DNA from: Eledone cirrhosa | Taxonomy: Eukaryota | NCBI GenBank assembly: GCA_964016885.1 | Contig: OZ024742.1 | Span: forward strand, 378,758,001 to 378,822,000 | Length of the DNA stretch: 64,000 nt | Direction: 5' to 3' | Notes under the pieces: generated by a model | Told to the model about the DNA's origin: nothing | Databases searched by the model: none | What the model saw: the letters and a program-made list of their open reading frames with translations, nothing else | Position numbers and translations under genes: made by a program | In this document: in pieces, positions 43,023 through 64,000 of the stretch | Position numbering within the stretch: position 1 is the stretch's first letter | How the letters are laid out: each line of letters starts with the position of its first letter

Positions 43023-46000
43023 GTTCACCCAGTTGGAGGTGAGTGAGGATATTCACCCAGTTGTAGGCTGGAAGGATATTCACCCAGTTGTAGGCTGGAA
43101 GGTTATTCAACCAGTTATAGGTTGGCGAGGATATTCACCCAGTTGTAGGCTGGAAGGATATTCACCCAGTTGTAGGCTGGAAGGTTATTCAACCAGTTGT
43201 AGGCTGGAAGGATATTCACCCAGTTGTAGGCTGGAAGGATATTCACCCAGTTGTAGGCTGGAAGGATATTCACCCAGTTGTAGGCTAGAAGGATATTCAC
43301 CCAGTTGTAGGCTGGAAGGATATTCACCCAGTTGTAGGCTGGAAGGATATTCACCCAGTTGTAGGCTGGAAGGATATTCACCCAGTTGTAGGCTGGAAGG
43401 TTATTCAACCAGTTGTAGGTTAGTGAGGATCATTCAACCAGTTGTAGGCTGGGGAGGATATTCACCCAGTTGTGGGTTACTGAGGATATACAACCAGTTG
43501 TAGGCTGGGGAGGATATTCACCCAGTTGTGGGTTACTGAGGATATACAACCAGTTGTAGGTTGCGGAGGATATTCACCCAGTTGTAGGTTGCGGAGGATA
43601 TTCAACCAGTTGTAGGTTAGTGAGGATATTCAACCAGTTGTAGTCTTTTGAGGATATTCAACCAGTTATAGAGTAGTGAGGATATACAACCAGTTGTAGG
43701 TTGGGGAGGATATTTAACCAGTTGTAGGTTAGTGAGGATATTCAGCCAGTTGTAGTCTTTTGAGGATATTCAACCAGTTATAGAGTAGTGAGGATATACA
43801 ACCAGTTGTAGGTTGGGGAGTATATTTAACCAGTTGTAGGTTAGTGAAGATATACAACCAGTTGTAGGTTGGGGAGGATATTCAACCAGTTGTAAGGTAG
43901 TGAGGGCATTCAACCAGTTGTAGGATAGTGAGGATATTCACCCAGCTATAGGGTAGTTAGGACATTCAACCAGTTGTAGGTTGGGGAGGATATTCACCCA
44001 GTTGTAGGTTAGTGAGGATATACAACCAGTTGTAGGTTGGAGAGGATATTCAACCAGTTGTAGGGTAGTGAGGATATACAACCAGTTGTAGGATAGTGAG
44101 GATATTCAACCAGTTGTAGGTTGGGGAAGATATTCAACCAGTTGTGGGTTAGTGAGGATATTCAACCAGTTGTAGGTTGGGGAGGATATTCACCCAGTTG
44201 TGGGTTAGTGAGGATATTCAACCAGTTGTAGGTTGGGGAAGATATTCAACCAGTTGTGGGTTAGTGAGGATATTCAACCAGTTGTAGGTTGGGGAGGATA
44301 TTCACCCAGTTGCGGGTTAGTGAGGATATTCTCCCAGTTGTAGATTAGTGAAGATATACAACCAGTTGTAAGGTAGTGAGGATATTCACCTAGTTGTGTG
44401 TTAGGGAGGATATTCAACCAGTCGTAGACTGGTGAGGATATTCACCCAGTTGTAGGATAGTGAGGATATACAACCAGTTGTAGGATAGTGAGGATATTCA
44501 ACCAGTTGTAGGTTGGGGAGGATATTCACCCAGTTGTAGGTTGGTGAGGATATTCGACCAGTTGTAGGTTAGTGAGGATATTCACCCAGTTGTAGGTTGG
44601 AGAGGATATTCGACCAGTTGTAGGTTGGTGAGGATATTCGTACAGTTGTAGGTTAGTGAGGATATTCACCCAGTTGTAGGTTGGGGAGGATATTCAAACA
44701 GTTGTAGGTTGGGGAGGATATTCAACCAGTTGGAGGTTAGTGAGGATATTCTCCCAGTTGTAGATTAGTGAAGATATACAACCAGTTGTAAGGTAGTGAG
44801 GATATTCACCCAGTTGTGTGTTAGGGAGGATATTCAACCAGTTGTAGACTGGTGAGGATATTCAGCCAGTTGTGGGTTAGTGAGGATATTCAACCAGTTG
44901 TGGGTTAGTGAGGATATTCGCCCAGTTGTAGGGTAGTGAGGATATTCAACCAGTTGTGGGTTGTTGAGGATATTCAACCAGTTGTAGGGTAGTGAGGATA
45001 TTCACCCAGTTGTAGGGTAGTGAGGATATTCACCCAGTTGTAGGTTAGGGAGGATATTCACCCAGTTGTAGGCTGGAAGGATATTCAACCAGTTGTAGGT
45101 TGGTGACGATATGCAACCAGTTGTATGTTGGTGAGGATATTCAGCCAGTTGTAGGTTAGTGAGGATATACAACCAGTTGTAGGTTGGTGAGGATATTCAG
45201 CCAGTTGTAGGTTGGGGAGGATATTCAACCAGTTGTAGGTTAGTCAGGATATTCAACCAGCTGTAGGTTGGGGAGGATATTCACCCAGTTGTAGGTTAAT
45301 GAGGATATTCAACCAGTTGTACGTTGTGGAGGATATACAACCAGTTGGTGTGTAGTGAGGATATTCAACCTGTTTTAGGTTAGGGAAGATATTCATCCAG
45401 TTGGAGGTTAGTGAGGATATTCACCCAGATATAGGTTGGGGAGGATATTCAACCAGTTGTAGGTTGGGGAGGATATTCAACCAGTTGTAGGTTAGTCAGG
45501 ATATTCAACCAGCTGTAGGTTGGGGAGGATATTCACCCAGTTGTAGGTTAATGAGGATATTCAACCAGTTGTACGTTGTGGAGGATATACAACCAGTTGG
45601 TGTGTAGTGAGGATATTCAACCTGTTTTAGGTTAGGGAAGATATTCATCCAGTTGGAGGTTAGTGAGGATATTCACCCAGATGTAGGTTGGGGAGGATAT
45701 TCAACCAGTTGTAGGTTGGGGAGGATATTCAACCAGTTGTAGGTTAGTCAGGATATTCAACCAGTTGTAGGTTGGGAAGGATATTCACCCAGTTGTAGGT
45801 TAATGAGGATATTCAACCAGTTGTACGTTGTGGAGGATATACAACCAGTTGGTGTGTAGTGAGGATATTCAAACAGATGTAGATTAGTGAGGATAATCAC
45901 CCAGTTGTAGGTTAGTGAGGATATAAAACCAGTTGTGGGTTAGTGAGGATATTCAACCAGTTGCAGGTTAGTGAGGATATACAACCAGTTGTAGGGTAGT

Positions 46001-46878
46001 GAGGATATACAACCAGTTGTAGGGTAGTGAGGATATACAACCAGTTGTAGGTTCGGCAGGATTTTCAACCAGTTGTAGGTTGTAGAGGATATACAACCAG
46101 TTGTAGGTTGGCGAGGATATTCACCCAGTTGTAGGTTGGGGAGGATATTCAACCAGTTGTAGGTTGGTGAGCATTTTCAACCAGTTGTAGGTTGGTGAGG
46201 ATATACAACCAGTTGTAGGTTGGAGAGGATATTCAACCAGTTGTAGGCTGTAAGGATATTCACCCAGTTGTAGGTTGGGGAGGATATTCAACCAGTTGTA
46301 GTCTAGTGAGGATATTCAATCAGTTGTAGGTTGGGGAGGATATTCACCCAGATGTAGTTTGGGGAGGATATTCAACCAATTGTAGATTGGGAAGATATTC
46401 ATCCAGTTGTGGGTTGGAGAGGATATTCACCCAGTTGTGGGTTAGTGAGGATATTCAACTAGTTGTGGGTTGGTGAGGATATTCACCCAGTTGTGGGTTA
46501 GTGAGGATATACAACCAGTTGCAGGGTAGTGAGGATATTAACCCTGTTGTAGGTTAGTGAGGATATTCAACCAGTTGTAGTCTAGTGAGGATATTCAACC
46601 AGTTGTAGGTTGGGGAGGATATTCACCCAGTTGCAGTTTGGGGAGGATATACAACCAGTTGTGGGTTTGTGAGGATATTCAACCAGTTGTAGGCTGGAAC
46701 AATATTCAACCAGTTGTAGGTTGGTGAGGATATTCAACCAGTTGGAGGTTGGTGAGTATATTCAACCAGTTGGAGGTTAGTGAGGATATTCACCCAGTTG
46801 TAGGCTGGAAGGTTATTCAACCAGTTGGAGTTTGGTGAGGATATTCAACCATTTGTAGGTTAGTGAGGATATTCAGCC
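43023..46878. repeat. 27/28-bp minisatellite (GAGGATATTCAACCAGTTGTAGGTTRGW), about 140 copies
   Basis: 27-bp units (EGYSPSCRL) at 43045-43400, 28-bp units afterwards; a 252-bp (9-unit) repeat recurs at 45239, 45491 and 45743. Confidence 0.97.
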
Positions 46879-47114
46879 GTAGTTGAGGTGGATGTCAATT
46901 GACTTTGAGGAGTTAATTACGCTCCTTTTACAGCTCCTGCTGTTTATTGTACAGCAGGTAATTCCACGAGTGTATCTTGGTCAGCCTATGCAATATCTTG
47001 CCTATAAAGTTCTGAGCCGAACCGCGTAGTTTATTTTGGGACTCCAAATAATGAGAATAAATCTGGTGTTCATGTGAGAAATATGTTCTGGATAAATTTG
47101 TCCTGGGTGTACGT

Positions 47115-48637
47115 TTGGCAACCTACCGTTCAGTTAAACATTTTCGTCACATGCTTGAAGGATCGGATTTCGTGATCTACACGGACCATGAACCACTAGT
47201 TTATGCGTTCCGTACCAAACCTGATCGACATTCACGAAGAGAACTCCGCCACCTGGATTTTGTCTCCCAATATTCAACTGATATTCGGCATATCAAGGGA
47301 TCAGACAACATAGCAGCCGACGTCCTGTCACGAATCCAGCTGAACGCAATACATGTACATTCAGGCATCGACCTTCAACAGATCGCAGCTGACCAAGAGA
47401 CTGACGAAGAGCTTATCAAGCTCCGAGATTCACCATCCCTCAAGTTTCAGCAAGTTCCCATTCCTTCCTCTCCGGGACAAATTTGGTCCGACCTTTCTAC
47501 CGGTCATGAACGACCGTACGTACCACAGATGCATCGTCGACAAGTTTTTTCTGCTTTACACTGCTTGTCTCACCCGGGAATCCGGGCTACACAGAAACTC
47601 ATCTCTGCTCGTTTTGTGTGGACTAACATTAACAAGGACGTACGCGACTGGTCCAGGAGCTGCATGGCCTGCCAGAAAGCCCAAGTCCACAGACACATCA
47701 AAACTCCACTCAACACATTGGCGCAACCTGATGCACGTTTTCATCATGTGCATATCGACATCGTTGGACCTCTACCACCATCACAGAACTACACACATTT
47801 GCTCACCTGCATAGATCGTTTTTCCCGTTGGCCTGAGGCTTTTCCCATAAGTGCTACCTCAGCAGAAACAGTCGCTAAAACTTTGGTTTTACACTGGGTA
47901 TCACGTTATGGCGCCCCAGCGAAGATAACGGACAGAGGACGCCAATTTGATTCCCACCTCTTCAGGAACTGACTCGCCTGTTAGGATGTAAACACATCCG
48001 CACGACAGCTTATCACCCGCAAGCTAATGGTCTCGTGGAAAGATTCCATCGCCAATTGAAAGCTGCAATAAAAGCATATCCAGACAAGACCCACTGGTTT
48101 GAATACCTTCCACTCATCCTTCTGGGCATTCGATCCACCGTTAAGGAGGAATTCGGACACACACCTGCAGAATTAGTGTACGGCACCACCCTTGTTCTAT
48201 CTGGTCAGATGGTTGCTCCCATCTCTCCTCAGGACGTTCCAGACCCAGGATCATATGTACACCGTCTTCGACAATATATATTTCACCTTGCTCCTGCAAG
48301 CACCCGTCAACAGAACACGGCCACACATGTACCTTCAGACATTAAAGATTGGACACACGTTTTCGTTCGAAACGACACCATCCCAGCTCATCTTCGACCT
48401 CCATATTCTGGCCCTTACCGTGTTCTAAAAAAAGATCCGAAATATGTTATTCTCGATTAAGATGGTAAACAGAATTCTGTCAGTGTGGACAGATTAAAAA
48501 AGCCATCATGGATACAGTTATAGTCTCTACACCAGAAATTCCAACAGATTGCTGTCCCAGCAAGCCACCTGTTTCATCTCCAGTCACGAGAAGTGGACGA
48601 CGTGTCTATTGGCCCGCCAAGTTGGCACAATATGTGA
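47115..48637 (+). pseudogene. Decayed Ty3/Gypsy pol: RNase H C-terminus, integrase (HHCC, DDE) and GPY/F region
   Basis: [27 protein letters not shown]...[32 protein letters not shown]. Frameshifted near 47925-47975, stop at 48460, 5'-truncated. Confidence 0.93.
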
Positions 48638-49554: not shown

Positions 49555-49922
49555 TGTACAGCCACCGGAAATAACATGTGTGAAATAAACAGCTCCATCT
49601 ATCTGCTTAGCTAGCTACCTCACCGTGAAACAAACAACCCTTAAAATCCACCAAAATAAAACGCCTACGCAGCGACTAAACATCAAACGATTATTTCTGT
49701 ATAAATAGAGTGATTCCAAACACTTTCGCCAGTCGACCTTTGGCAGAGTCAACTCGCGTATCGTTGTTCCTCTCCTCTGCCACGCTTGTCACTCACACAC
49801 GCCTTGTACCTCTGTATCGTCGCTTCATGTATGAAAATAAACAGCTGACCGAAACTACATCTCTCGCCTTGCTCATCCTTTCAACTTGTGCTTTCGTCTG
49901 TTCAACCTTACCGTATGTGACA
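49555..49922 (+). mobile_element. Probable Gypsy 3' LTR
   Basis: Polypurine tract GGCAGGGGGATAA directly before TGT; internal TATAAATA (~49700) and AATAAA (~49836); ends ...TGTGACA. Right boundary uncertain. Confidence 0.6.
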
Positions 49923-50105
49923 ACAGTCCTTTTAAGGGCTATCCTCAGATCCGATCAGACCATATGCGATAACAGTCCTTTTAAGGGCTATTCTCGGATC
50001 CGATCAGAAGTAGTGACCAGACCGACTAACCACGTAGCTACACATACATACATACATACATACATACATACATACATACATACATACATACATACATACA
50101 TACAT

Positions 50106-50213
<108 letters not shown>

Positions 50214-50222
50214 TATATATAT

Positions 50223-50502
50223 ATATAAAGAAAAAGAGATGAAATCGAAAATGCAACTGGAGTCTTATTTTTTTTTAAAATATATAGGGTCTGTGGTTTT
50301 TAAAAACCACAGACCCTCCATCTCAACTCACCTTTTGAAAAGCAGAAGAACTGCGAAACCGGTAAAGGAACCAAATAAATATATATATTTAAAAAAAAAA
50401 TAAGACTCCAGTTGCATTTTCGATTTCATCTCTTTTTCTTTATACTTTCACTCGTGTAGGACACCTCGGTTATTTTTCATTTTTTTGTAAAAAAAACCTC
50501 AC

Positions 50503-50509
<7 letters not shown>
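50223..50509 (+). mobile_element. Miniature fold-back copy of the PLE at 57377-63310 (family A)
   Basis: Near-identical to the last ~200 bp of the long element (63110-63310), preceded by an inverted copy. Central palindrome at 50287-50316; (TA)n on both sides. Confidence 0.9.
50331..50368 (+). ncRNA. Minimal hammerhead ribozyme, U3-A8 core variant
   Basis: cctt TTGAAAA gcag aagaa ctgc GAAA ccgG TA aagg. Confidence 0.7.
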
Positions 50510-50542
<33 letters not shown>

Positions 50543-50545
<3 letters not shown>

Positions 50546-50729
50546 AAAATGTATGACCCCGACGGCAGAGTCAAGCCGTTTGGACAGCTTTTTCTGAAAT
50601 AACCGTTGAAAGGGCTTCAGCTCTGCCGTCGGGGTCATACATTTTCCTATTACCCACTCTACTACCCTAAGTATTGAGTACACTGGCGCGTTATGATTCA
50701 TCTGGTTCCTTACCACAACTTCTTCGTTA
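50543..50729 (+). mobile_element. Fold-back PLE remnant (family B)
   Basis: IR ggaaaatgtatgaccccgacggcagag/ctctgccgtcggggtcatacattttcc plus ~80-nt tail, in (TA)n; homologous to 51602-51749 and 63351 onward. Confidence 0.75.
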
Positions 50730-50748
50730 TATATATATATATATATAT

Positions 50749-51021
50749 CGAATAAGGAAAAGCGAAGTAGTTTTTCAGATGTTCAAGTCTTTTAATAATA
50801 ATGCTGTGATATATATTTCAATGGCGACACTGGCCACACTGTTCCGTGCGGAACAGTGTGGCAACTATCGCCATTGAAATATATATCACAGCATTATTAT
50901 TAAAAGACTTGAACATCTGAAACTACTTCGCTTTTCCTTATTCAATATTTACTCCGTCACTCCTATGTGGAATAAGTACGTTGAGTGCTTGAATTGAATT
51001 GCATCAATATTTACCCTAAGA

Positions 51022-51022
<1 letters not shown>
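50749..51022 (+). mobile_element. Fold-back PLE remnant (family C)
   Basis: ~95-bp inverted arms 50750-50845/50850-50943 plus 79-nt tail, in (TA)n. The arm contains a hammerhead 3' half: GAAA-TATAT-ATC. Confidence 0.7.
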
Positions 51023-51052
<30 letters not shown>

Positions 51053-51065
51053 CATACATATACAA

Positions 51066-51126
<61 letters not shown>

Positions 51127-51129
<3 letters not shown>

Positions 51130-51579
51130 GTAGAACACTGGAAGGTAATATCCGTAGTAGTAGAGCACTCAGTCCATGGGACGAGTTAGGTAGAAGTGGT
51201 TACACGTCGTGTGGACTATGTATTGATGAACGAATAAATATTCTAAAGAGATTACGCAATAGCGATTGCCTAAACTCAAGAAATGAATTCTTCACACGTT
51301 CTCCACACGTCTGGAAACACCTCTTACATAACTACAAAGCTCCGGATTGAATTACAACAGCATCCTAATTTGTTTATGAACTAGAAACTTTCGGACTTTC
51401 GCAGTTATCTCCATTATACCTCTCGCACGCAATTTAGTGAAGTGACCGTTTCTGCGCATGCGCGTTCGTACGGCTGTCCTTCCTGTTCCGTATAATCATG
51501 TCCATTACGAGCTGAGGATCCGCTAAGGTGAAACAATTGTTCACGGTATGGTGAACTAACTGTTGTGTAACCACTTCTA
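51127..51579. mobile_element. (TA)n-inserted element with hammerhead-like motif
   Basis: 15-bp IR 51191-51205/51565-51579; CTGAGGA tcc gctaa ggt GAAA caattg TT at 51512-51541. Confidence 0.55.
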
Positions 51580-51601
51580 TATATATATATATATATATAT
51601 A

Positions 51602-51749
51602 GGAAAATGTTCAGGACCCGACGGCAGAGCTCAAGCCGTTTCGACGGCTATTTCTGGACTGAAATAGCCGTCGAAATGGCTTGAGCTCTGCCGTCCGGGT
51701 CCTCTGGTGCGTTATGGTCCACCTGATTCCTTACCACACTTCCTTCGTT
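51602..51749 (+). mobile_element. Fold-back PLE remnant (family B)
   Basis: IR ggacccgacggcagagctcaagccgtttcgacggctatttc / gaaatagccgtcgaaatggcttgagctctgccgtccgggtcc; the tail resembles that of 50543-50729. Confidence 0.75.
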
Positions 51750-51823
51750 ATATATATATATATATATATAAAAACAAGAAGTGTAAGTCAACGGGTTAAA
51801 ATTAGTTTCGTTTATTCATATTC

Positions 51824-51882
51824 ACTGCAATATATATTTCAGTGATAGCCATTATTCAACAGCTATGACCTCATCAGGTAGC
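51824..51882 (-). ncRNA. Hammerhead ribozyme motif (canonical CUGAUGA) in an insert adjoining (TA)n
   Basis: Minus strand: gctac CTGATGA ggtcatagct gttgaataat ggctatcact GAAA tatat ATT gcagt. Stem II pairs 9 of 10, stem III is palindromic, stem I has one mismatch. Confidence 0.7.
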
Positions 51883-51999
51883 TAGAACAGGAAAAACAGG
51901 GAAACATAATGTTGTAATAGATTTTACCGTGTTAATTTGTTGATCCGGATACTGAAGTGTCGGTAAACAACACATACTCGAAGTTATACACACACACGC

Positions 52000-56197: not shown

Positions 56198-56465
56198 ACA
56201 CACACACACACACACATACATACATACACACACATGCTTACGCACATGCGCAAGTTTAGCTCCTTTTACAAAACGTTTTTTTTTTCCATTCCAGGTAGAC
56301 GCGCTCCATCATCCACTTTTCTAAAAATTAAATCATACACAAAACGCCAGCACCAACAGTTTTGCAAGAGATGTCAGCATGAATGCACCTGTTATATTTA
56401 TCTAAAGACATTTTTTTCCAATTCCAGCCAGCCCGTCCCCTCAATCTATCTTACTTCCCATTCTT

Positions 56466-56501
56466 TCTTCCGACGAAGGACTAGCGTCCGAAACGTTAAG
56501 A
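56466..56501 (+). ncRNA. Hammerhead-like motif, atypical core, in a probable PLE pLTR remnant
   Basis: tctt CCGACGAA ggac tagc gtcc GAAA C GTT aaga. Stems I and II pair; stem III forms only via the AACGTT palindrome. Confidence 0.5.
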
Positions 56502-56593
56502 CCCTCTTCCTGCTATTTCAAACGTTAACCTAATATATCCCTTCCATATACTGTACCGATTGTATTGTTATTTTAGTTTACCTTTTACATACA

Positions 56594-56634
<41 letters not shown>

Positions 56635-57337
56635 AGAGGAAAATGCGAAGTTGTAGATGTGAAAGCGTTTATTAATTGAGCCGTTATACATATTTCCATG
56701 ACGATAGATTGAGTAAAGGGTAACGTTTCCGAGGCGGAAATGGGTGGAAGAGCGTGGACTAAAAATGATGAATGTTTCTGCTTTGGTTGTCCACAAAGGT
56801 GTCAGAGCATTTGTCGGGGCTTGGAATAATTCGCTGTGAAAGAGCCTACACCCTCGGGGACAGTATCCGAGGCACCTGAGAAAGCGAATCATGACATCTG
56901 GCTCAACAGAGGCAGTTGGTGCGCCTGACTGGTTGAGATGGATTAAGTTCTCTGACAGAGAATCACATCAGACCCTTTAATTTTCTGCTGTTCTGAAGGT
57001 TAGGCGGAGAAATCTGGCACTGGCTCGCAACATTAGAGACATTAAATTTTGTGCAGGAGTTTCATCGCCTACATGATTGAGTGGTTGTGAGTAGCTCTGG
57101 TGTTGCTGTAGCATGGGCTGAAACAGCTACAAAGTTACTTCACTAGCTGAATCGAAGTACACAAATGTCTTTACCAAGTACATGTAGATAGAAATAGCTA
57201 TGGAAACTGTAGATGGTCGTATGTTTTGATTTATGGTGCCAATTAAATGTGAGGGCAACAAATTGAAGATCCCACCAGAAACTCTGGTAACGTGTGAAAG
57301 TGATTATAACTCGCTGTAAGAATGATTCTAAATGATA

Positions 57338-57380
<43 letters not shown>

Positions 57381-57452
57381 AAGAAAAAGAGATGAAATCG
57401 AAAATGCAACTGAAGTCTTATTTTTTTTTAAAATATATATATTTATTTGGTT

Positions 57453-57490
57453 CCTTTACCGGTTTCGCAGTTCTTCTGCTTTTCAAAAGG
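57453..57490 (-). ncRNA. Minimal hammerhead, U3-A8 variant (inverted-arm copy)
   Basis: Reverse complement of 63139-63176. Confidence 0.7.
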
Positions 57491-58014
57491 TGAGTTGAGA
57501 TGGAGGGTCTGTGGTTTTTCTCACATCTGGTTGGTCTCTGAATGTTACTTGTTTTATATGGAAAAAGTGGCTCGAAATTCCAGGTTTTTCGAGAAGTAAT
57601 TTGATTGGTTTGTCAATAATTATAATAAATTTCGCGCCAGTTCGCGTTACAATAGTTCTTCAAATAAGAGAGGGGGGGGGGGGGGGTTGTCAGAGGTTGT
57701 TTTTTCATATATGAGTGTTTGAATTTCTTTTTACTTGAAAAAAGGAGGCTCACGAAGGCTTTTTTTTGGTTGGTTATAAATGAAATTTGGCTGTCACGTG
57801 AACAAGTTTTTATTACATTTTTGCGCCCTTATTTGGAAAACTATTCTGTAGTCTTTATAGTAAATTGTTATGACAATGGAGAGATAGTGGTCAAGAGAAA
57901 GGGGATTGGGAGAAATGTTCTGGTTCAGTGAATATGGCCAGCTCGCCGGGGTGTCAGAGTTCAGATTTTCTATTGAGACTGAAGATATGTATGTTTATTT
58001 GTGTGCTTGTGTGT

Positions 58015-58101
<87 letters not shown>

Positions 58102-58586
58102 GGAAGATGATTCTATTAGTAGAGATTGGGGAGGGAGTTGTGTGTGTGTGTATATGGGTGTTATGTGTGTGTGTGCGAGTATGTTAAGATGGAGAGAATA
58201 TATATTTTGTGTGTGTGTATATATATATGTGTGTAGGAAAGTGGTTCTATTAGTAGAAATGGGGAGGGAGTTGTAGGTGTGGGGGTTGTTATGTGTGTGT
58301 ATGGGTGTTATGTGTGTGGGAGTATGGTTAGCATGTTAAGATGAAGAGAATATATATATATATATATATATATATTGTGTGTGTGTGTATGTGTGTGTGT
58401 AGGAAAGTTATTCCTTTAGTAGGAATATTTTTGAATGAACATATTTTCCTTACTTTTTCGTGTTTGCTGTTGTATTGCCAGTGCAAACGTATGTTAAGGT
58501 TTATTTAGTTCGGGTTTTTATTTTCTAAAGTAGAAGGTGTTATGTGTGTGTGTGTATGTCATATTGTGGTGTTGACATAATGTATA

Positions 58587-58889
58587 TTAAACCTTATTTA
58601 ATGTTGGTCTATATTTTTGAATAAACATATTTTCCTTATTTATTCGCATTTGTTCTGTTGTATTGTTAGCGCAAAGGTAAAATGGGAAGACTTGGAATGT
58701 GGGTGTCTTATTACTTGCGCAAATGTCTAGATGTGCACTTAGTGGTATCTGTCTCGTGGTTGGATCTCGTAATTGTTGGCGATGAACTGTCATTCTGTTT
58801 CTGAGTGTGAGTTTAGTTTGTCCTATATAATCTTCATTGCATCCTTTACATTTAATGGCATAAATTAGATTTTTTGATGAGCAAGTGAA
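58587..58889 (-). pseudogene. Inverted duplicate of the GIY-YIG C-terminus within the PLE arm
   Basis: Translation identical to the last ~100 aa of the 59790-62060 ORF. Confidence 0.9.
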
Positions 58890-59823
58890 AAACACCCTAA
58901 TCAACATATGGACTCAAAAGCTCACAGCCCGCAAATTCGCCCTTTGGAATCTCCTAAAAAATAATGGCAAGGCAGACATATATGAAAAGTGGCTAAACTC
59001 TACCCCAATCATCCTCCCCAAAAAACTCAAAATAAAACCCATCCCAAATGAACCAGAAAACCAACAAAGACTTAGGGAAAAGATGGCATTGGAAAAATTT
59101 TAAACAGAAATAGAACTGTTGCGATTAAGAGCCAACTCCAACGAAGAAAAATTCAAGTCACTCGACCAACAGATGGACACAGAAATCTCAAAGCACTCTG
59201 AAGGCCTACTCTACAAAAAAACCCTAAAACTTTGGAAAGAAAACTGTGAGGATGAAGAACTAACATCCCTCCAGCGATGGGAAAAAAACGCCATCTGGTT
59301 CAACAACTACGAAATGGACTTCAAAAATGAACAACATACAGGTAACCCATTTTTAAAACAAACTAAAACTCACACACCACATGCACAACAAATAACAAAA
59401 AAAGTAACAAAACGTCCAACATACCCCCAGCAAAACTATAACGATAATCCCAGAAACCATAGACAAAACTATAACCCTACTAACAAAAACCAAAGATCCC
59501 CGAACACGAGGCAGGACCTGATCCGCAGATCACAACCCACACAAAACCTATTCCAAAACCGTAGACCCCTGCCCACACAGAGCCTGTTCCAAAACCGTAG
59601 ATCCCAACCCACACAAAGGAACCAAATCTACAACCCGGACTATCAACAAACCGAACCTCAATACGTCCGAAACTTATATACAAGACCACACAACAACAGG
59701 GGAAATACCATTAGATATAATAATACCAATGAAAAAACATTCCAGAAAAATCATTTTTTAGACCAAGGCTACAGGACTCACGACACTCGGTGGCACAAAC
59801 CGATTTTGAAAAACCGAAAATAA
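58890..59823 (+). CDS. PLE upstream ORF (5'-truncated, one in-frame TAA at 59101): charged helical region followed by a Q/N/R/P-rich low-complexity region
   Basis: ORF-track 58885-59103 and 59119-59823 share a frame. The ORF overlaps the RT ORF, which is in the -1 frame. Confidence 0.65.
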
Positions 59824-62060
59824 TTAACATTTCAAATACAAACCTCTCAGCCCAACAAGTAAAAATTCTCTCCAAAGGTCTGAAATTCACACCAACACCA
59901 CAATACCCTAACCCCAACGAGATAAATGACGATATCTCACACTTCTATAGAAAATTACGTCTCACAGAGGAATTCTTTGACAAGGAGAATAACGACGAAT
60001 CAATTGTACGGAATAAAAGCAGCTACAACCCAACAAAAGGTAGAAACAGAGTTCTGGACAAATGTTGTGACCACATAGCTACCTTCCCATACCATGAACT
60101 ACCGCAACCTAAACCCAAACCCAACACAAGTCGAAGGGAATGGGAGATTATCCATGAACTAAAAAACAATACGGACATTGTAATTAAGGAAGCGGACAAG
60201 GGAAGTACTGTTGTCATTATGGAGGCTGAAAAATATAAAAATTCTATGTTCTCTCTCTTACAAAATACTAATTACTATGAAAGAGTAAAAAACTACCAGC
60301 AATCAAAAATAATGACCAAATTAAACACATTGATTTATCGATATCAGGAAGACCTAACTAAAAAGGAACGCGATTATTTAACAAATTTTGAATACAAAAC
60401 CAGCAACCCTTACGGACTTCCGAAGATCCACAAATCTAAAATAATCAACGATGCCTGTAAACAATCCACCTCAGCCTGCGTGAACACACAATACCCCACA
60501 GACCTTAAATTAAGACCAATTGTAGCGGGCCCACAATGTGAAACACACAGATTGAGCAACTTTATAGACATACTACTGAAACCAATACTGAAACACATAC
60601 CAAGCCTTGTAAGAGACGATCTGGATCTCTTAAACCACCTCCCAAAACATGTCAACAACGACACTATTATTGTGTCTTTCGATGTAGTGAATCTCTACAC
60701 AACGATCCCACACCAATACGGACTAGAAGCAATAGGATTCTGGCTAGAGAAATATCCCAATGAGATACCTGACAGAATAGAAAAAAGCTTCATCACCGAG
60801 GGATTAAAATTCATCCTACAGAACAACTTTTTTGATTGCGATGGCAATACTTACAAGCAAATATCGGGGACTGCGATGGGCACAAAAGCCGCTCCAACTT
60901 ATGCCAACTTAGTCATGGCATACTTAGAAGTCCAGATATATGAACAGTCCAAATCAAAATACGGATTGAACTTCCACAAATATTTATCAGAGAATTGGAA
61001 ACGCTACTTGGATGATTGCCTCATTCTTTGGTCCCACACACTCGACCAACTGAAGGATTTCAAAAACTTAATACACGGCATCAATAACCACATCCAATTC
61101 ACAATGGAATACAGCCAAGATCAACTCCCATTTCTGGACATCTTAATCACAAAAAAAGACACAAATATCGAAACTGACATACACTACAAACCAACAGATT
61201 CCAAACAATATCTGCTATTCACCTCCAACCATCCAAAGCACACGAAGACGAACATTCCTTTTAACCTAGCAAGAAGAATTTGCACAATTGTCTCCAATTA
61301 TGAAACGCGAAATAAAAGACTTCAAGAATTAAAGGAAATTCTACTTGAGAGAGAGTACCCACTATTACTAATAAATAATGGAATAGAAAGGGCTAAAGCA
61401 ATAGGCATTGATGAATTACGAAAACAGAAACAAATTCAAGGTACGTCCAATATTCTATCATATATCTCAACACACAACCCAAGAAATGCGGAAGCTTACA
61501 ACACTATTCACAATAACATCCCACTACTAAAACAAAACCCAAGAAGGAAAAAAGCCCTTGAAACACACAAAATAATCAAAAGCAAAAGACAACCAAAATC
61601 ACTGAAAACATTACTCACCAATGCCAAATTACCTACCACAAACCCACAACCAAGTATCAAAAAATGTGGTCGCTCTAATTGTGGAACCTGCACTCACCTC
61701 ATTGAAGGCAACATGTATACATTTAAATCAGGACAAAATTTTACTGTAAAAAATCACTTCACTTGCTCATCAAAAAATCTAATTTATGCCATTAAATGTA
61801 AAGGATGCAATGAAGATTATATAGGACAAACTAAACTCACACTCAGAAACAGAATGACAGTTCATCGCCAACAATTACGAGATCCAACCACGAGACAGAT
61901 ACCACTAAGTGCACATCTAGACATTTGCGCAAGTAATAAGACACCCACATTCCAAGTCTTCCCATTTTACCTTTGCGCTAACAATACAACAGAACAAATG
62001 CGAATAAATAAGGAAAATATGTTTATTCAAAAATATAGACCAACATTAAATAAGGTTTAA
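59733..62060 (+). CDS. PLE reverse transcriptase + GIY-YIG endonuclease (open frame; ORF-track start is GTG 59790)
   Basis: LSKGLKF, IKEADKGS, YGLPKIHK, RPIV, SFDVVNLYT, GTAMG, RYLDD, LPFLD; linker CGRSNCGTC; NLIYAIKCKGC..YIGQT...R..H...H...E...LN. Confidence 0.97.
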   Translation, partial: KNIPEKSFFRPRLQDSRHSVAQTDFEKPKIINISNTNLSAQQVKILSKGLKFTPTPQYPNPNEINDDISHFYRKLRLTEEFFDKENNDESIVRNKSSYNPTKGRNRVLDKCCDHIATFPYHELPQPKPKPNTSRREWEIIHELKNNTDIVIKEADKGSTVVIMEAEKYKNSMFSLLQNTNYYERVKNYQQSKIMTKLNTLIYRYQEDLTKKERDYLTNFEYKTSNPYGLPKIHKSKIINDACKQSTSACVNTQYPTDLKLRPIVAGPQCETHRLSNFIDILLKPILKHIPSLVRDDLDLLNHLPKHVNNDTIIVSFDVVNLYTTIPHQYGLEAIGFWLEKYPNEIPDRIEKSFITEGLKFILQNNFFDCDGNTYKQISGTAMGTKAAPTYANLVMAYLEVQIYEQSKSKYGLNFHKYLSENWKRYLDDCLILWSHTLDQLKDFKNLIHGINNHIQFTMEYSQDQLPFLDILITKKDTNIETDIHYKPTDSKQYLLFTSNHPKHTKTNIPFNLARRICTIVSNYETRNKRLQELKEILLEREYPLLLINNGIERAKAIGIDELRKQKQIQGTSNILSYISTHNPRNAEAYNTIHNNIPLLKQNPRRKKALETHKIIKSKRQPKSLKTLLTNAKLPTTNPQPSIKKCGRSNCGTCTHLIEGNMYTFKSGQNFTVKNHFTCSSKNLIYAIKCKGCNEDYIGQTKLTLRNRMTVHRQQLRDPTTRQIPLSAHLDICASNKTPTFQVFPFYLCANNTTEQMRINKENMFIQKYRPTLNKV

Positions 62061-62268
62061 TATACATTATGTCAACACCACAATATGACATACACACACA
62101 CACATAACACCTTCTACTTTAGAAAATAAAAACCTGAACTAAATAAACCTTAACATACGTTTGCACTGGCAATACAACAGCAAACACGAAAAAGTAAGGA
62201 AAATATGTTCATTCAAAAATATTCCTACTAAAAGAATCACTTTCCTACACACACACATAGACACACAC

Positions 62269-62311
<43 letters not shown>

Positions 62312-62561
62312 TCTTCATCTTAACATGCTAACCATACTCCCACACACATAACACCCATACACACACATAACAACCCCCACACCTACAACTCCCTCCCCAT
62401 TTCTACTAATAGAACCACTTTCCTACACACATATATATATACACACACACAAAATATATATTCTCTCCATCTTAACATACTCGCACACACACACATAACA
62501 CCCATATACACACACACACAACTCCCTCCCCAATCTCTACTAATAGAATCATCTTCCAATA

Positions 62562-62630
<69 letters not shown>

Positions 62631-63138
62631 GCACACAAATAAACATACATATCTTCAGTCTCAATAGAAAATCTGAACTCTGACACCCCGGCGAGCTGGC
62701 CATATTCACTGAACCAGAACATTTCTGCCAATCCCTTTATCTTGACCACTATCTCTCCATTGTCTTAACATTCACTATAAAGACTACAAATAGTTTTCCA
62801 AATAAGGGCGCAAAAATGTAATAAAAACTTGTTCACGTGACAGCCAAATTTCATTTATAACCAACCCCAAAAAAGCCTTCGTGAGCCTCCTTTTTTCAAG
62901 TAAATAGAAATTCAAACACTCATATATGAAAAAACAACCTCTGACAACCCCCCCCCCTCTCTTATTTGAAGAACTATTGTAACGCGAACTGGCGCGAAAT
63001 TTATTATAATTATTGACAAACCAATCAAATTACTTCTCGAAAAACCTGGAATTTCGAGCCACTTTTTCCATATAAAACAAGTAACATTCAGAGACCAACC
63101 AGATGTGAGAAAAACCACAGACCCTCCATCTCAACTCA

Positions 63139-63176
63139 CCTTTTGAAAAGCAGAAGAACTGCGAAACCGGTAAAGG
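63139..63176 (+). ncRNA. Minimal hammerhead ribozyme, U3-A8 core variant, in PLE 3' pLTR
   Basis: cctt TTGAAAA gcag aagaa ctgc GAAA ccgG TA aagg. Stem I 4 bp, stem II 4 bp, palindromic ACCGGT at stem III. Confidence 0.75.
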
Positions 63177-63303
63177 AACCAAATATATATATTTTTTTTA
63201 AAAATAAGACTTCAGTTGCATTTTGGATTTCATCTCTTTTTCTTTATACTTTCACTCGTGTAGGACACCTCGGTTATTTTTCATTTTGTAAAAAAAACCT
63301 CAC

Positions 63304-63350
<47 letters not shown>

Positions 63351-63352
<2 letters not shown>

Positions 63353-64000
63353 AACCAGTAAGACCCCGACAGCTGAGCTCAAGCCGTTTCGACGGCTAAT
63401 TCTGGACTAAATGAAAATTTATCCTGGTATTTAAATAGCCGATCTTCTCAAGGGGTAATTCCAGATATGGTCAAAGTGATTGTCAAAAATCAGTAGTAAT
63501 TCTGTGGTTGCAAATTAGTAGGGGAGATGGTGGCTAAACCTGCCAGTAGGAGAAAGAGGGTAGGGGGTGGAGTAGACCCAATCAAGCGTTGGTAGTGCCA
63601 GCTACAGCTGGGCATGAGGTCAAAGAAGATACAGGGGAGGGGGAGGGGGAGGAAGTCGGAACGGTAGGTAGAACAATGGGGGGTAGAAATATATAGGAAA
63701 GAAAAAAAATACTGAGAGTGAAGAAAAGCAAATAAGTGTAAAGAAAAAAGTAAAGTAAATTAAATTCTACGACCTAGGTCTCAGGCTATTGTTAGGCTAG
63801 AATAAAATAAAGAAAGAAAGAAAGAAAGAAGTAAAGAAAGAAATAAATAAAGAAATAACGAAATAAGTAAAAGAACTAGGTGGGACGAAATAGGCAAGGA
63901 CCCTTTTAAGAGGTATAAGTACGTAAATGATACGGTGACGGGTCAACAAAAGAGGCCAAAATACTAAAGAGACAATAATGTACGAGATAATGATACTGAG
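63351..64000 (-). mobile_element. Inverted pLTR arm of a family-B PLE continuing past the window
   Basis: Begins at (TA)n, is homologous to the starts of the 50543 and 51602 inserts, and holds a full hammerhead motif. Confidence 0.65.
63363..63456 (-). ncRNA. Extended type-I hammerhead ribozyme, U3-A8 core variant
   Basis: Minus strand: acccc TTGAGAA gatcggctattt...aattagccgtc GAAA cggct tgagctc agctg TC ggggt. Stem I 5 bp, long stem II, stem III 6 bp, GUC site. Confidence 0.8.

What the first reader, a model, noticed from the sequence alone, without database searches (positions are those of the whole stretch)
50223..51990. Chain of six ribozyme-bearing mini-inserts, five of them fold-backs, stacked in one (TA)n tract
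Seen: six consecutive 150-450 bp inserts separated by (TA)n-rich runs. Five share the plan 'inverted arm + arm + unpaired 45-80 nt tail', although they belong to at least four unrelated sequence families. One is a miniature of the coding PLE 7 kb away. All carry a full or half hammerhead motif. Inference: several (TA)n-specific PLE families repeatedly hit the same microsatellite, regenerating targets and building a ribozyme- and hairpin-dense island. These may be truncation products or a non-autonomous ribozyme-based retroelement class.
Basis: partly seen in the sequence, partly recalled or inferred. Interest (0 to 1): 0.75.

Follow-up and report, generated by a model that had tools for sequence, protein, structure and literature searches.

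The report
Stacked head-to-head Penelope retrotransposon stubs
Six short inserts packed between TA repeats are head-to-head end pieces of five families of Penelope-like jumping genes, a published insertion layout; the sharp point at which the commonest stubs stop likely marks where the element's RNA begins.

Summary
The six inserts are real and belong to five Penelope-like element (PLE) families: one canonical, three Hydra-type, one an ORF-less 1.3-kb unit. Four are true fold-backs, not five; all six are head-to-head pairs with one tail-less and one tailed end. Of 112 such pairs, 94 are tail-less plus tailed, 0 tail-less twice, 3 tailed twice, 15 unclassified. This fits published PLE insertions (inverted truncated copy, one-sided tail, two RT start sites, (TA)n targets). 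The stubs are not a self-copying fold-back class: 59 stubs show 55 different apexes and both arms share subfamily variants. Three inserts hold a full hammerhead motif (one passes my descriptor), three a half. Added here: in the commonest family 52 of 66 TA-ended arms stop at one spot, while 0 of 23 copies lying before the ORF stop there. That suggests run-off at a linear RNA's 5' end for stubs and an endless (circular or multimeric) template for long copies; no RNA data could test it. Stacking is modestly enriched. The scan reported this architecture before on other DNA.

The parts
50136..50227 (.). (TA)n run left of the chain
50228..50508 (+). Insert 1, family 1 (canonical PLE, same as 57377-63310): inverted tail-less arm 50228-50286 with an internal deletion, small apex hairpin 50286-50317, sense arm to 50440, tail 50441-50508
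50330..50369 (+). Complete minimal type I hammerhead motif with U3-A8 core and palindromic stem III; predicted cut after 50364
   Evidence: passes descriptor; same motif in 17 of 33 family copies that carry the 3' half
50509..50543 (.). (TA)n spacer
50545..50727 (+). Insert 2, family 2 (Hydra-type): inverted arm 50545-50594, sense arm 50596-50646, tail 50647-50727; 3' half hammerhead from 50608, mutated
50728..50748 (.). (TA)n spacer
50750..51021 (+). Insert 3, family 3 (ORF-less 1.3-kb unit): inverted arm 50750-50845, sense arm 50850-50943, tail 50944-51020; apex inside hammerhead stem II, 3' half hammerhead 50876-50892
51022..51126 (.). (TA)n-rich spacer with a short interruption
51127..51577 (+). 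Insert 4, family 4 (Hydra-type): inverted tailed arm 51127-51205, sense tail-less arm 51205-51577
51219..51350 (+). Last 43 codons and stop of the family 4 RT-endonuclease ORF
   Evidence: same peptide ends the ORFs of longer copies
51507..51547 (+). Complete but atypical hammerhead motif (2-bp stem II, U17, one stem I mismatch)
   Evidence: only 6 of 82 family copies pass the descriptor
51578..51601 (.). (TA)n spacer
51602..51749 (+). Insert 5, family 2, another subfamily: inverted arm 51602-51659, sense arm 51661-51703, about 40 nt missing, tail remnant to 51748; 3' half hammerhead from 51673
51749..51770 (.). (TA)n spacer
51771..51946 (-). Insert 6, family 6 (Hydra-type): tail-less arm in antisense with a complete, mutated hammerhead motif at about 51882-51824
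51947..51985 (+). Insert 6: last ~38 nt of the family 6 tail in sense
57377..63310 (+). Long family 1 copy with the same plan: 1.5-kb inverted tail-less arm, 4.4-kb tailed arm with the 775-codon RT-GIY-YIG frame 59733-62060
63351..64000 (-). Tail-less arm of a long family 2 copy that runs 2.7 kb past the window and holds a Hydra-type ORF
   Evidence: L160

Best explanation
The chain is six separate head-to-head stubs of five Penelope-like element families lying in one TA microsatellite, each likely made when the element's enzyme primed copying on both DNA strands at two neighbouring start sites on its RNA. Shown: each family has two fixed 3' termini, a short one and one 65-98 nt further on (the tail); nearly every pair joins one of each; both arms carry the same subfamily variants; junctions differ between copies; flanks are TA. 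Inferred, from published in vitro work on another PLE (PMC11167929): the protein nicks both strands of AT-rich DNA, one cDNA starts at the tail end and the other at the inner site, both stop early and are joined end to end, leaving inverted arm + arm + one tail. Inferred: each insertion leaves TA on both sides, so the tract stays a target and stubs of different ages pile up. Inferred and untested (about 0.4): the sharp apex of family 2, and weaker ones in families 1, 4 and 6, is the 5' end of a linear transcript from a promoter inside the pseudo-LTR, so priming near the 5' end runs off as a stub, while long copies come from circular or multimeric RNA. The stubs are likely dead; half-hammerheads would not self-cleave alone.
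For: Two-peaked 3' ends in all five families. 94 of 112 pairs short+tailed, 0 short+short, 3 tailed+tailed, 15 unclassified; without the window and the loci picked by the whole-insert query 62 of 77 (3 tailed twice, 12 unclassified); among pairs met by chance in flanks 25 of 34 (9 unclassified, none of another class). In the 3 tailed-twice pairs one arm runs on into the element body. Arms co-vary: 2.3 mismatches per 21 nt within a stub against 4.4 +/- 0.18 in 1000 shuffles; 55 apexes among 59 stubs. The tail-less arm reaches over 20 nt further upstream than the tailed arm in 20 of 94 pairs, the reverse in 5. ORF links: family 1, 2, 4, 6. Ages differ: best other copy 100% (insert 1 tail), 90% (insert 2), 100% (insert 3 tail), 99% (insert 4 end), 93% (insert 6). 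Apex: 7 of 10 family 2 insertions in 600 kb of evenly spaced DNA stop at -51 to -59; 52 of 66 TA-ended arms against 0 of 23 ORF-preceding copies, p 5e-12; 0 of 13 arms of the young subfamily outside ORF-picked loci pass it; the hot spot has no constant position relative to the hammerhead. Literature: PMC8557442 (passages, section 11, supplement rows), PMC11167929 (parts 1-2 of 4), PMC2377424 (passages, section 15), PMC4209133 (parts 1-2 of 4).
Against: No RNA or biochemistry for these families. The pass-through contrast is significant only for family 2 (family 1: 10 of 31 against 0 of 10, p 0.08; family 4: 15 of 58 against 1 of 12, p 0.27); two arms of one stub are not independent, and the two sets were picked by different queries. 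A simple mRNA that starts at the hot spot would give full-length copies starting there, and 1 of 45 does, so the start-site reading needs the extra assumption of an endless template. No cap-derived extra G is evident at solo junctions (by eye). Family 3 shows no clear hot spot and no ORF-bearing parent was found. 15 of 112 pairs could not be classified. Uneven arms could also come from later deletions. Stacking enrichment could reflect a favoured region: the chain is about 94 kb from the end of its contig.
Confidence: 0.85

Rival explanations
1. Same stubs, but the apex hot spot is a reverse-transcriptase stall at RNA structure that affects only a freshly started, poorly processive enzyme.
For: The family 2 hot spot and the apex of insert 3 lie inside hammerhead stem II; only 1 of 45 ORF-preceding copies begins at a hot spot, which a start-site model explains only with an endless template.
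Against: Hot spots of families 1, 4 and 6 lie about 45, 20 and 130 nt upstream of the hammerhead core; in family 2 cDNAs of about 57 and 137 nt stop at the same base, in mid-stem and in subfamilies with different upstream loops.
Confidence: 0.3
2. One cDNA is primed at the tail, folds back on itself and copies itself toward the target; a nick or jump at the inner site ends the second arm.
For: Both arms share subfamily variants; 69 of 94 pairs have arms of similar reach.
Against: In 20 of 94 pairs the tail-less arm holds upstream sequence that the tailed arm lacks, including insert 6 and the 3-kb arm of L160; two start sites and extension of both strands are shown in vitro for another PLE (PMC11167929).
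Confidence: 0.08
3. The fold-backs are a self-propagating, non-autonomous ribozyme mini-element class (retrozyme- or MITE-like) with fixed ends.
For: About 50,000 family 2 copies (10 in 600 kb; Poisson range 20,000-85,000) of nearly constant 160-210 bp size; family 3's parent is ORF-less; a short RNA from a stub could be re-primed and rebuild a new apex each time.
Against: 55 apexes in 59 stubs, the same apex in different subfamily backgrounds; most family 2 stubs lack the catalytic half of the hammerhead (20 of 176 copies pass); long ORF-bearing relatives exist for four families; stubs are not in tandem arrays.
Confidence: 0.06
4. The palindromes are assembly or library artefacts.
For: Locus-specific apex words of inserts 2 and 3 were not covered by contigs of four runs at 100% likeness.
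Against: Arms differ by substitutions and deletions; ends fall on family-specific positions at many loci; short-read contigs of three runs of one sample hold another family 3 fold-back junction.
Confidence: 0.01

Closest known systems
Complex insertions of endonuclease-bearing Penelope-like elements (Craig et al. 2021, PMC8557442, Fig. 2 legend)
   Same: Inverted 5'-truncated copy next to the element, tail at only one end, hammerhead in the pseudo-LTR, partial tandems, (TA)n targets.
   Different: Tails are 65-98 nt rather than 30-40; most family 2 insertions are only the two ends, with a sharp common upstream limit.
Hydra clade PLEs, including Hydra-1_Obim (PMC8557442 section 11 and supplement)
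   Same: Families 2 and 4 have RWR and DKT motifs, families 4 and 6 the CxCx5C linker; (TA)n insertion; family 4 protein resembles Hydra-1_Obim by eye.
   Different: Not identical to Hydra-1_Obim (three family motifs had 0 hits in the supplement); the family 2 unit is 3.54 kb; no tree was built.
Poseidon element of Anolis in vitro (Frangieh et al. 2024, PMC11167929)
   Same: Two RT start sites bounding the tail, both DNA strands cut and extended, hammerhead cleavage not needed for insertion.
   Different: Another clade and host; that paper does not treat head-to-head stubs or an apex limit in the parts I read.
Minimal type I hammerheads of metazoan PLEs (Cervera and de la Pena 2014, PMC4209133)
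   Same: Short palindromic stem III, U3-A8 core variant, pairs of motifs 100-700 bp apart on opposite strands ascribed to truncated PLEs.
   Different: Here two unrelated families use U3-A8, and stubs often keep only the 3' half.
Non-LTR retrozymes (bioRxiv 10.64898/2026.07.22.740005, part 1 of 5 read; PMC7229834, search listing only)
   Same: Non-coding, hammerhead-bearing, PLE-related; family 3's ORF-less head-to-tail unit works like a long one.
   Different: The six inserts are single head-to-head pairs, not tandem repeats with a full ribozyme per unit.

Membership tests
Endonuclease-bearing Penelope-like elements | Parent ORF with RT and C-terminal GIY-YIG-type endonuclease | tested here: met
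   Family 1: RVT_1 E 1.3e-6 (just under its cut-off) and GIY-YIG E 7e-6. Families 2, 4, 6: ORFs 38-48% alike to each other and to the Hydra pattern; Pfam gave only a weak RVT_1 hit for 1 of 3. Not met for family 3.
Endonuclease-bearing Penelope-like elements | Partial tandems forming pseudo-LTRs | tested here: met
   Pseudo-LTR or tail directly before the ORF in 27 of 30, 23 of 30 and 12 of 20 loci; arrays of period 3544.
Endonuclease-bearing Penelope-like elements | Inverted 5'-truncated copy and one-sided tail | tested here: met
   94 of 112 pairs.
Endonuclease-bearing Penelope-like elements | Hammerhead motif in the pseudo-LTR | tested here: met
   Descriptor passed by 17 of 33, 20 of 176, 25 of 43, 6 of 82 and 26 of 42 copies of families 1, 2, 3, 4, 6; no Rfam hit.
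Endonuclease-bearing Penelope-like elements | RT groups with PLE/telomerase RTs in a tree | not tested
   No reference set of PLE proteins was in the script box.
Hydra clade (families 2, 4, 6) | RWK-like and DKT motifs | tested here: met
   RWR and DKT read in families 2 and 4; that part of family 6 was not fetched.
Hydra clade (families 2, 4, 6) | CxCx5C linker, no CCHH | tested here: met
   Linker in families 4 and 6; no CCHH seen by eye; the family 2 copy examined is broken there.
Hydra clade (families 2, 4, 6) | Generally under 3 kb, (TA)n insertion | tested here: inconclusive
   Family 4 about 2.5 kb, family 2 unit 3.54 kb; TA flanks met.
Non-LTR retrozymes | Head-to-tail tandem units, each with a complete type I hammerhead | tested here: not met
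   Inserts are single head-to-head pairs, three with half motifs. Met in part by the 1.3-kb family 3 unit.
Non-LTR retrozymes | Circular RNA and self-cleavage | not testable with these tools
   No RNA holder listed.
MITE / fold-back DNA transposons (features recalled) | Terminal inverted repeats at both ends and a fixed inherited interior | tested here: not met
   One end is an unpaired tail; 55 apexes in 59 stubs.

The most novel reading that the evidence does not exclude
The stubs are a genomic fossil record of the PLE replication cycle: priming is possible only at the pseudo-LTR/ORF junction, so a linear transcript that starts inside the pseudo-LTR yields two run-off cDNAs and a stub whose apex marks the transcription start, whereas long and tandem copies come from hammerhead-made circular RNA that has no 5' end. 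Tens of thousands of stubs would then map PLE start sites and make the open question of the hammerhead's role directly testable.
Probability: 0.35. Interest if true: 0.65.

Novelty: new member of a known kind. Interest (0 to 1): 0.33.

Why it matters
As a structure the chain is an ordinary, if unusually long, pile of dead PLE stubs (1 chain of six; among other loci 344 singles, 24 pairs, 1 triple). Its value is as evidence on mechanism: how PLEs form inverted and tandem insertions is named as open in PMC8557442, and the role of their hammerheads is unsettled (PMC11167929, PMC4209133). The one-tail rule and the stop/pass-through contrast give predictions that 5'-end mapping and circular-RNA assays can test. 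About 100,000 such insertions of these five families (20 in 600 kb) also make them a large source of potential hairpin RNA in this genome; expression is untested.

Tried and rejected
Rfam: whole window (150 of 195 matches shown, none a hammerhead) and the chain alone (70 matches, none); the miRNA hits are generic hairpins below gathering scores. Genome search with 50315-50440 returned nothing, not even itself (common words are skipped), and the family 1 tail query only 9, so family 1 counts are not copy numbers. No RNA holder listed. Laying four runs on the chain showed only family-level cover; apex words of inserts 2 and 3 had no cover, which proves nothing. Apex = hammerhead cut site: rejected, the cut lies about 17 nt from the short terminus and few arms end there. 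Apex = splice acceptor: rejected by eye, copies keep the AG and bases before it and show no shared upstream exon. Apex = 5' end of the template of long copies: rejected. Cap-derived G: not evident. A recurrent one-base arm asymmetry among the first 30 family 2 loci was set aside as selection by the query. The family 3 peak at -50 is an interruption by another repeat, not a truncation. The Neptune-like ORF next to L147 is a separate element, not family 6's parent. Paper searches listed nothing on a fixed apex or on these stubs in octopus; the library lacks most subscription papers and Repbase reports, and bioRxiv supplements were not read. The octopus host is inferred from repeat content and the scan's earlier notes, not tested.

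Full report
Observation. Between 50228 and 51985 six inserts of 148-451 bp alternate with TA runs. Inserts 1, 2, 3 and 5 are fold-backs with arms matching 58/59, 43/50, 91/94 and 41/42; insert 4 has a 15-16 bp overlap only and insert 6 none. Insert 1 is the 3' end of the long element at 57377-63310, whose 775-codon frame hits RT and GIY-YIG profiles. Inserts 2 and 5 are one family, so there are five families.

Families. Searches of the window's own genome (3.0 Gb) gave 1772 and 1244 candidates for family 2, 1007 for family 3, 250 for family 4, 2203 for family 6 and 9 for the family 1 tail; at most 40 were scored each and up to 30 fetched. Longer copies tie families 2, 4 and 6 to ORFs with the motifs that PMC8557442 (section 11) gives for the Hydra clade; insert 4 itself holds the last 43 codons of its ORF. 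They resemble but are not Hydra-1_Obim (compared by eye). Family 1 has a C-x4-C-x2-C linker as in Neptune/Nematis-type elements (no tree). Family 3's unit is about 1.31 kb, occurs head to tail and has no RT frame; its tail shares an 8-nt motif with families 2, 4 and 6, so a Hydra-type enzyme likely moves it (inference). The young family 2 subfamily has 40 of 40 scored copies identical over 151 nt and arrays of period 3544.

Two termini, one tail. Each family's copies end at a short terminus or 65-98 nt further on. Among 112 head-to-head pairs in 177 loci and the window, 94 join one of each, none two short ends, 3 two tails, and 15 could not be classified; in the 3 exceptions one arm continues into the element body. 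Removing loci picked with the whole insert leaves 62 of 77; pairs met by chance in flanks give 25 of 34 with 9 unclassified. All 94 have TA on at least one flank, 82 on both. Five of the six inserts are classified this way; insert 5 lacks about 40 nt at the tail base and was left unclassified. This is the layout drawn in PMC8557442 (inverted truncated copy, tail at one end), and PMC11167929 shows for an Anolis element two RT start sites bounding the tail with both DNA strands cut and extended.

Made anew each time. Of 59 family 2 stubs, 55 have different apexes, and the two arms of a stub differ by 2.3 of 21 bases against 4.4 when shuffled: one source per insertion, no inherited fold-back master. 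In 20 of 94 pairs the tail-less arm reaches further upstream than the tailed one, in 5 the reverse, which a single self-primed hairpin cannot give without later deletion. Two target-primed cDNAs joined at their ends is the best fit (inference).

Hammerheads. Full motifs lie in inserts 1, 4 and 6, 3' halves in 2, 3 and 5. Insert 1 passes a type I descriptor; family copies pass in 17 of 33, 20 of 176, 25 of 43, 6 of 82 and 26 of 42 cases. Families 1 and 2 use the U3-A8 core already reported in PMC4209133, which also mentions pairs of motifs on opposite strands near each other. Rfam finds none. Activity is untested.

The apex. Family 2 arms stop 51-60 nt upstream of the short terminus: 123 of 214 arms (includes selected loci), 7 of 10 insertions in 600 kb of evenly spaced DNA, 52 of 66 TA-ended arms outside the first 30 loci. 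Copies that lie before the ORF read through the same spot, 0 of 23 stopping (p 5e-12), and the young subfamily makes stubs with the same limit. Families 1, 4 and 6 have weaker peaks at other distances from the hammerhead; their contrasts are not significant (0 of 10 and 1 of 12 against 10 of 31 and 15 of 58). The family 2 limit falls on an initiator-like hexamer (consensus recalled), and Penelope has an internal promoter in its pseudo-LTR (PMC2377424, section 15). I read the limit as the likely 5' end of a linear RNA, with long copies from circular or multimeric RNA as proposed in PMC4209133; a stall of a newly started enzyme is the main rival. No RNA run was available.

Stacking. In random DNA these five families give about 20 insertions per 1034 TA tracts, none with a different neighbour; 16 of 150 focal loci have one within 150 nt against 3.8% expected. 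Outside the window the longest chain was three. The inserts differ in age (90-100% to their nearest copies). The chain lies about 94 kb from the contig end, and a second stack of four elements starts at about 56400, so local density may contribute as much as target regeneration.

Verdict. Real, largely explained by known PLE biology, and noted before by this scan on other DNA (unchecked AI notes, whose one-tail rule I tested independently). A search of those notes for an apex/start-site reading returned none. New families of a known kind, with one testable addition on where stubs stop.

Noticed in passing
window 2184-34320: 32-kb satellite of a 20-bp unit, about 1628 copies; also a 16-bp array at 1398-2070 and a 28-bp array at 43024-46875.
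   Followed up: no
window 47061-48460: Broken frames that look like RNase H and integrase of a Gypsy-type LTR retrotransposon (label from recalled motifs, not tested).
   Followed up: no
window 56400-64000 and L160: A second stack: a hammerhead-bearing end of another family at about 56470-56595, an antisense arm 75-77% like family 3 from 56631, the long family 1 copy, then a long family 2 copy, each separated by TA.
   Followed up: partly
L164:7219-8755, L166, L091: Family 3 is an ORF-less 1.3-kb head-to-tail unit with one full hammerhead and long stem II: a non-autonomous PLE or long retrozyme-like element with at least 1007 candidates.
   Followed up: partly
L080, L087, L090, L094, L097, L098: A 100-190 bp SINE-like repeat sits again and again in the same ATT run just downstream of the family 3 hammerhead (14 arms break at -50); inherited or recurrent is unresolved.
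   Followed up: no
tails of families 2, 3, 4, 6 (window 50647-50727, 50944-51020, 51127-51190): An 8-nt motif (TGAGT-purine-CT) is shared by the tails of four otherwise unrelated families and absent from family 1; a candidate protein-binding site.
   Followed up: partly
G000:C2:320551231-320558469 and C2:11106885-11110581: Tandem arrays of the young family 2 element with periods 3544 and 3546; 40 of 40 scored copies identical over 151 nt, so it is likely still active.
   Followed up: partly
window 59104-59823 and 59733-62060: The long family 1 copy has an upstream frame overlapping the RT frame, as described for some PLEs with a frameshifted ORF1.
   Followed up: no
window 49910-50008: A 49-bp direct duplication just left of the tract.
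   Followed up: no
L174:1353-4115 and L169:2322-3812: Long Neptune-like RT-GIY-YIG frames of further PLE families directly beside family 6 and family 3 copies.
   Followed up: no
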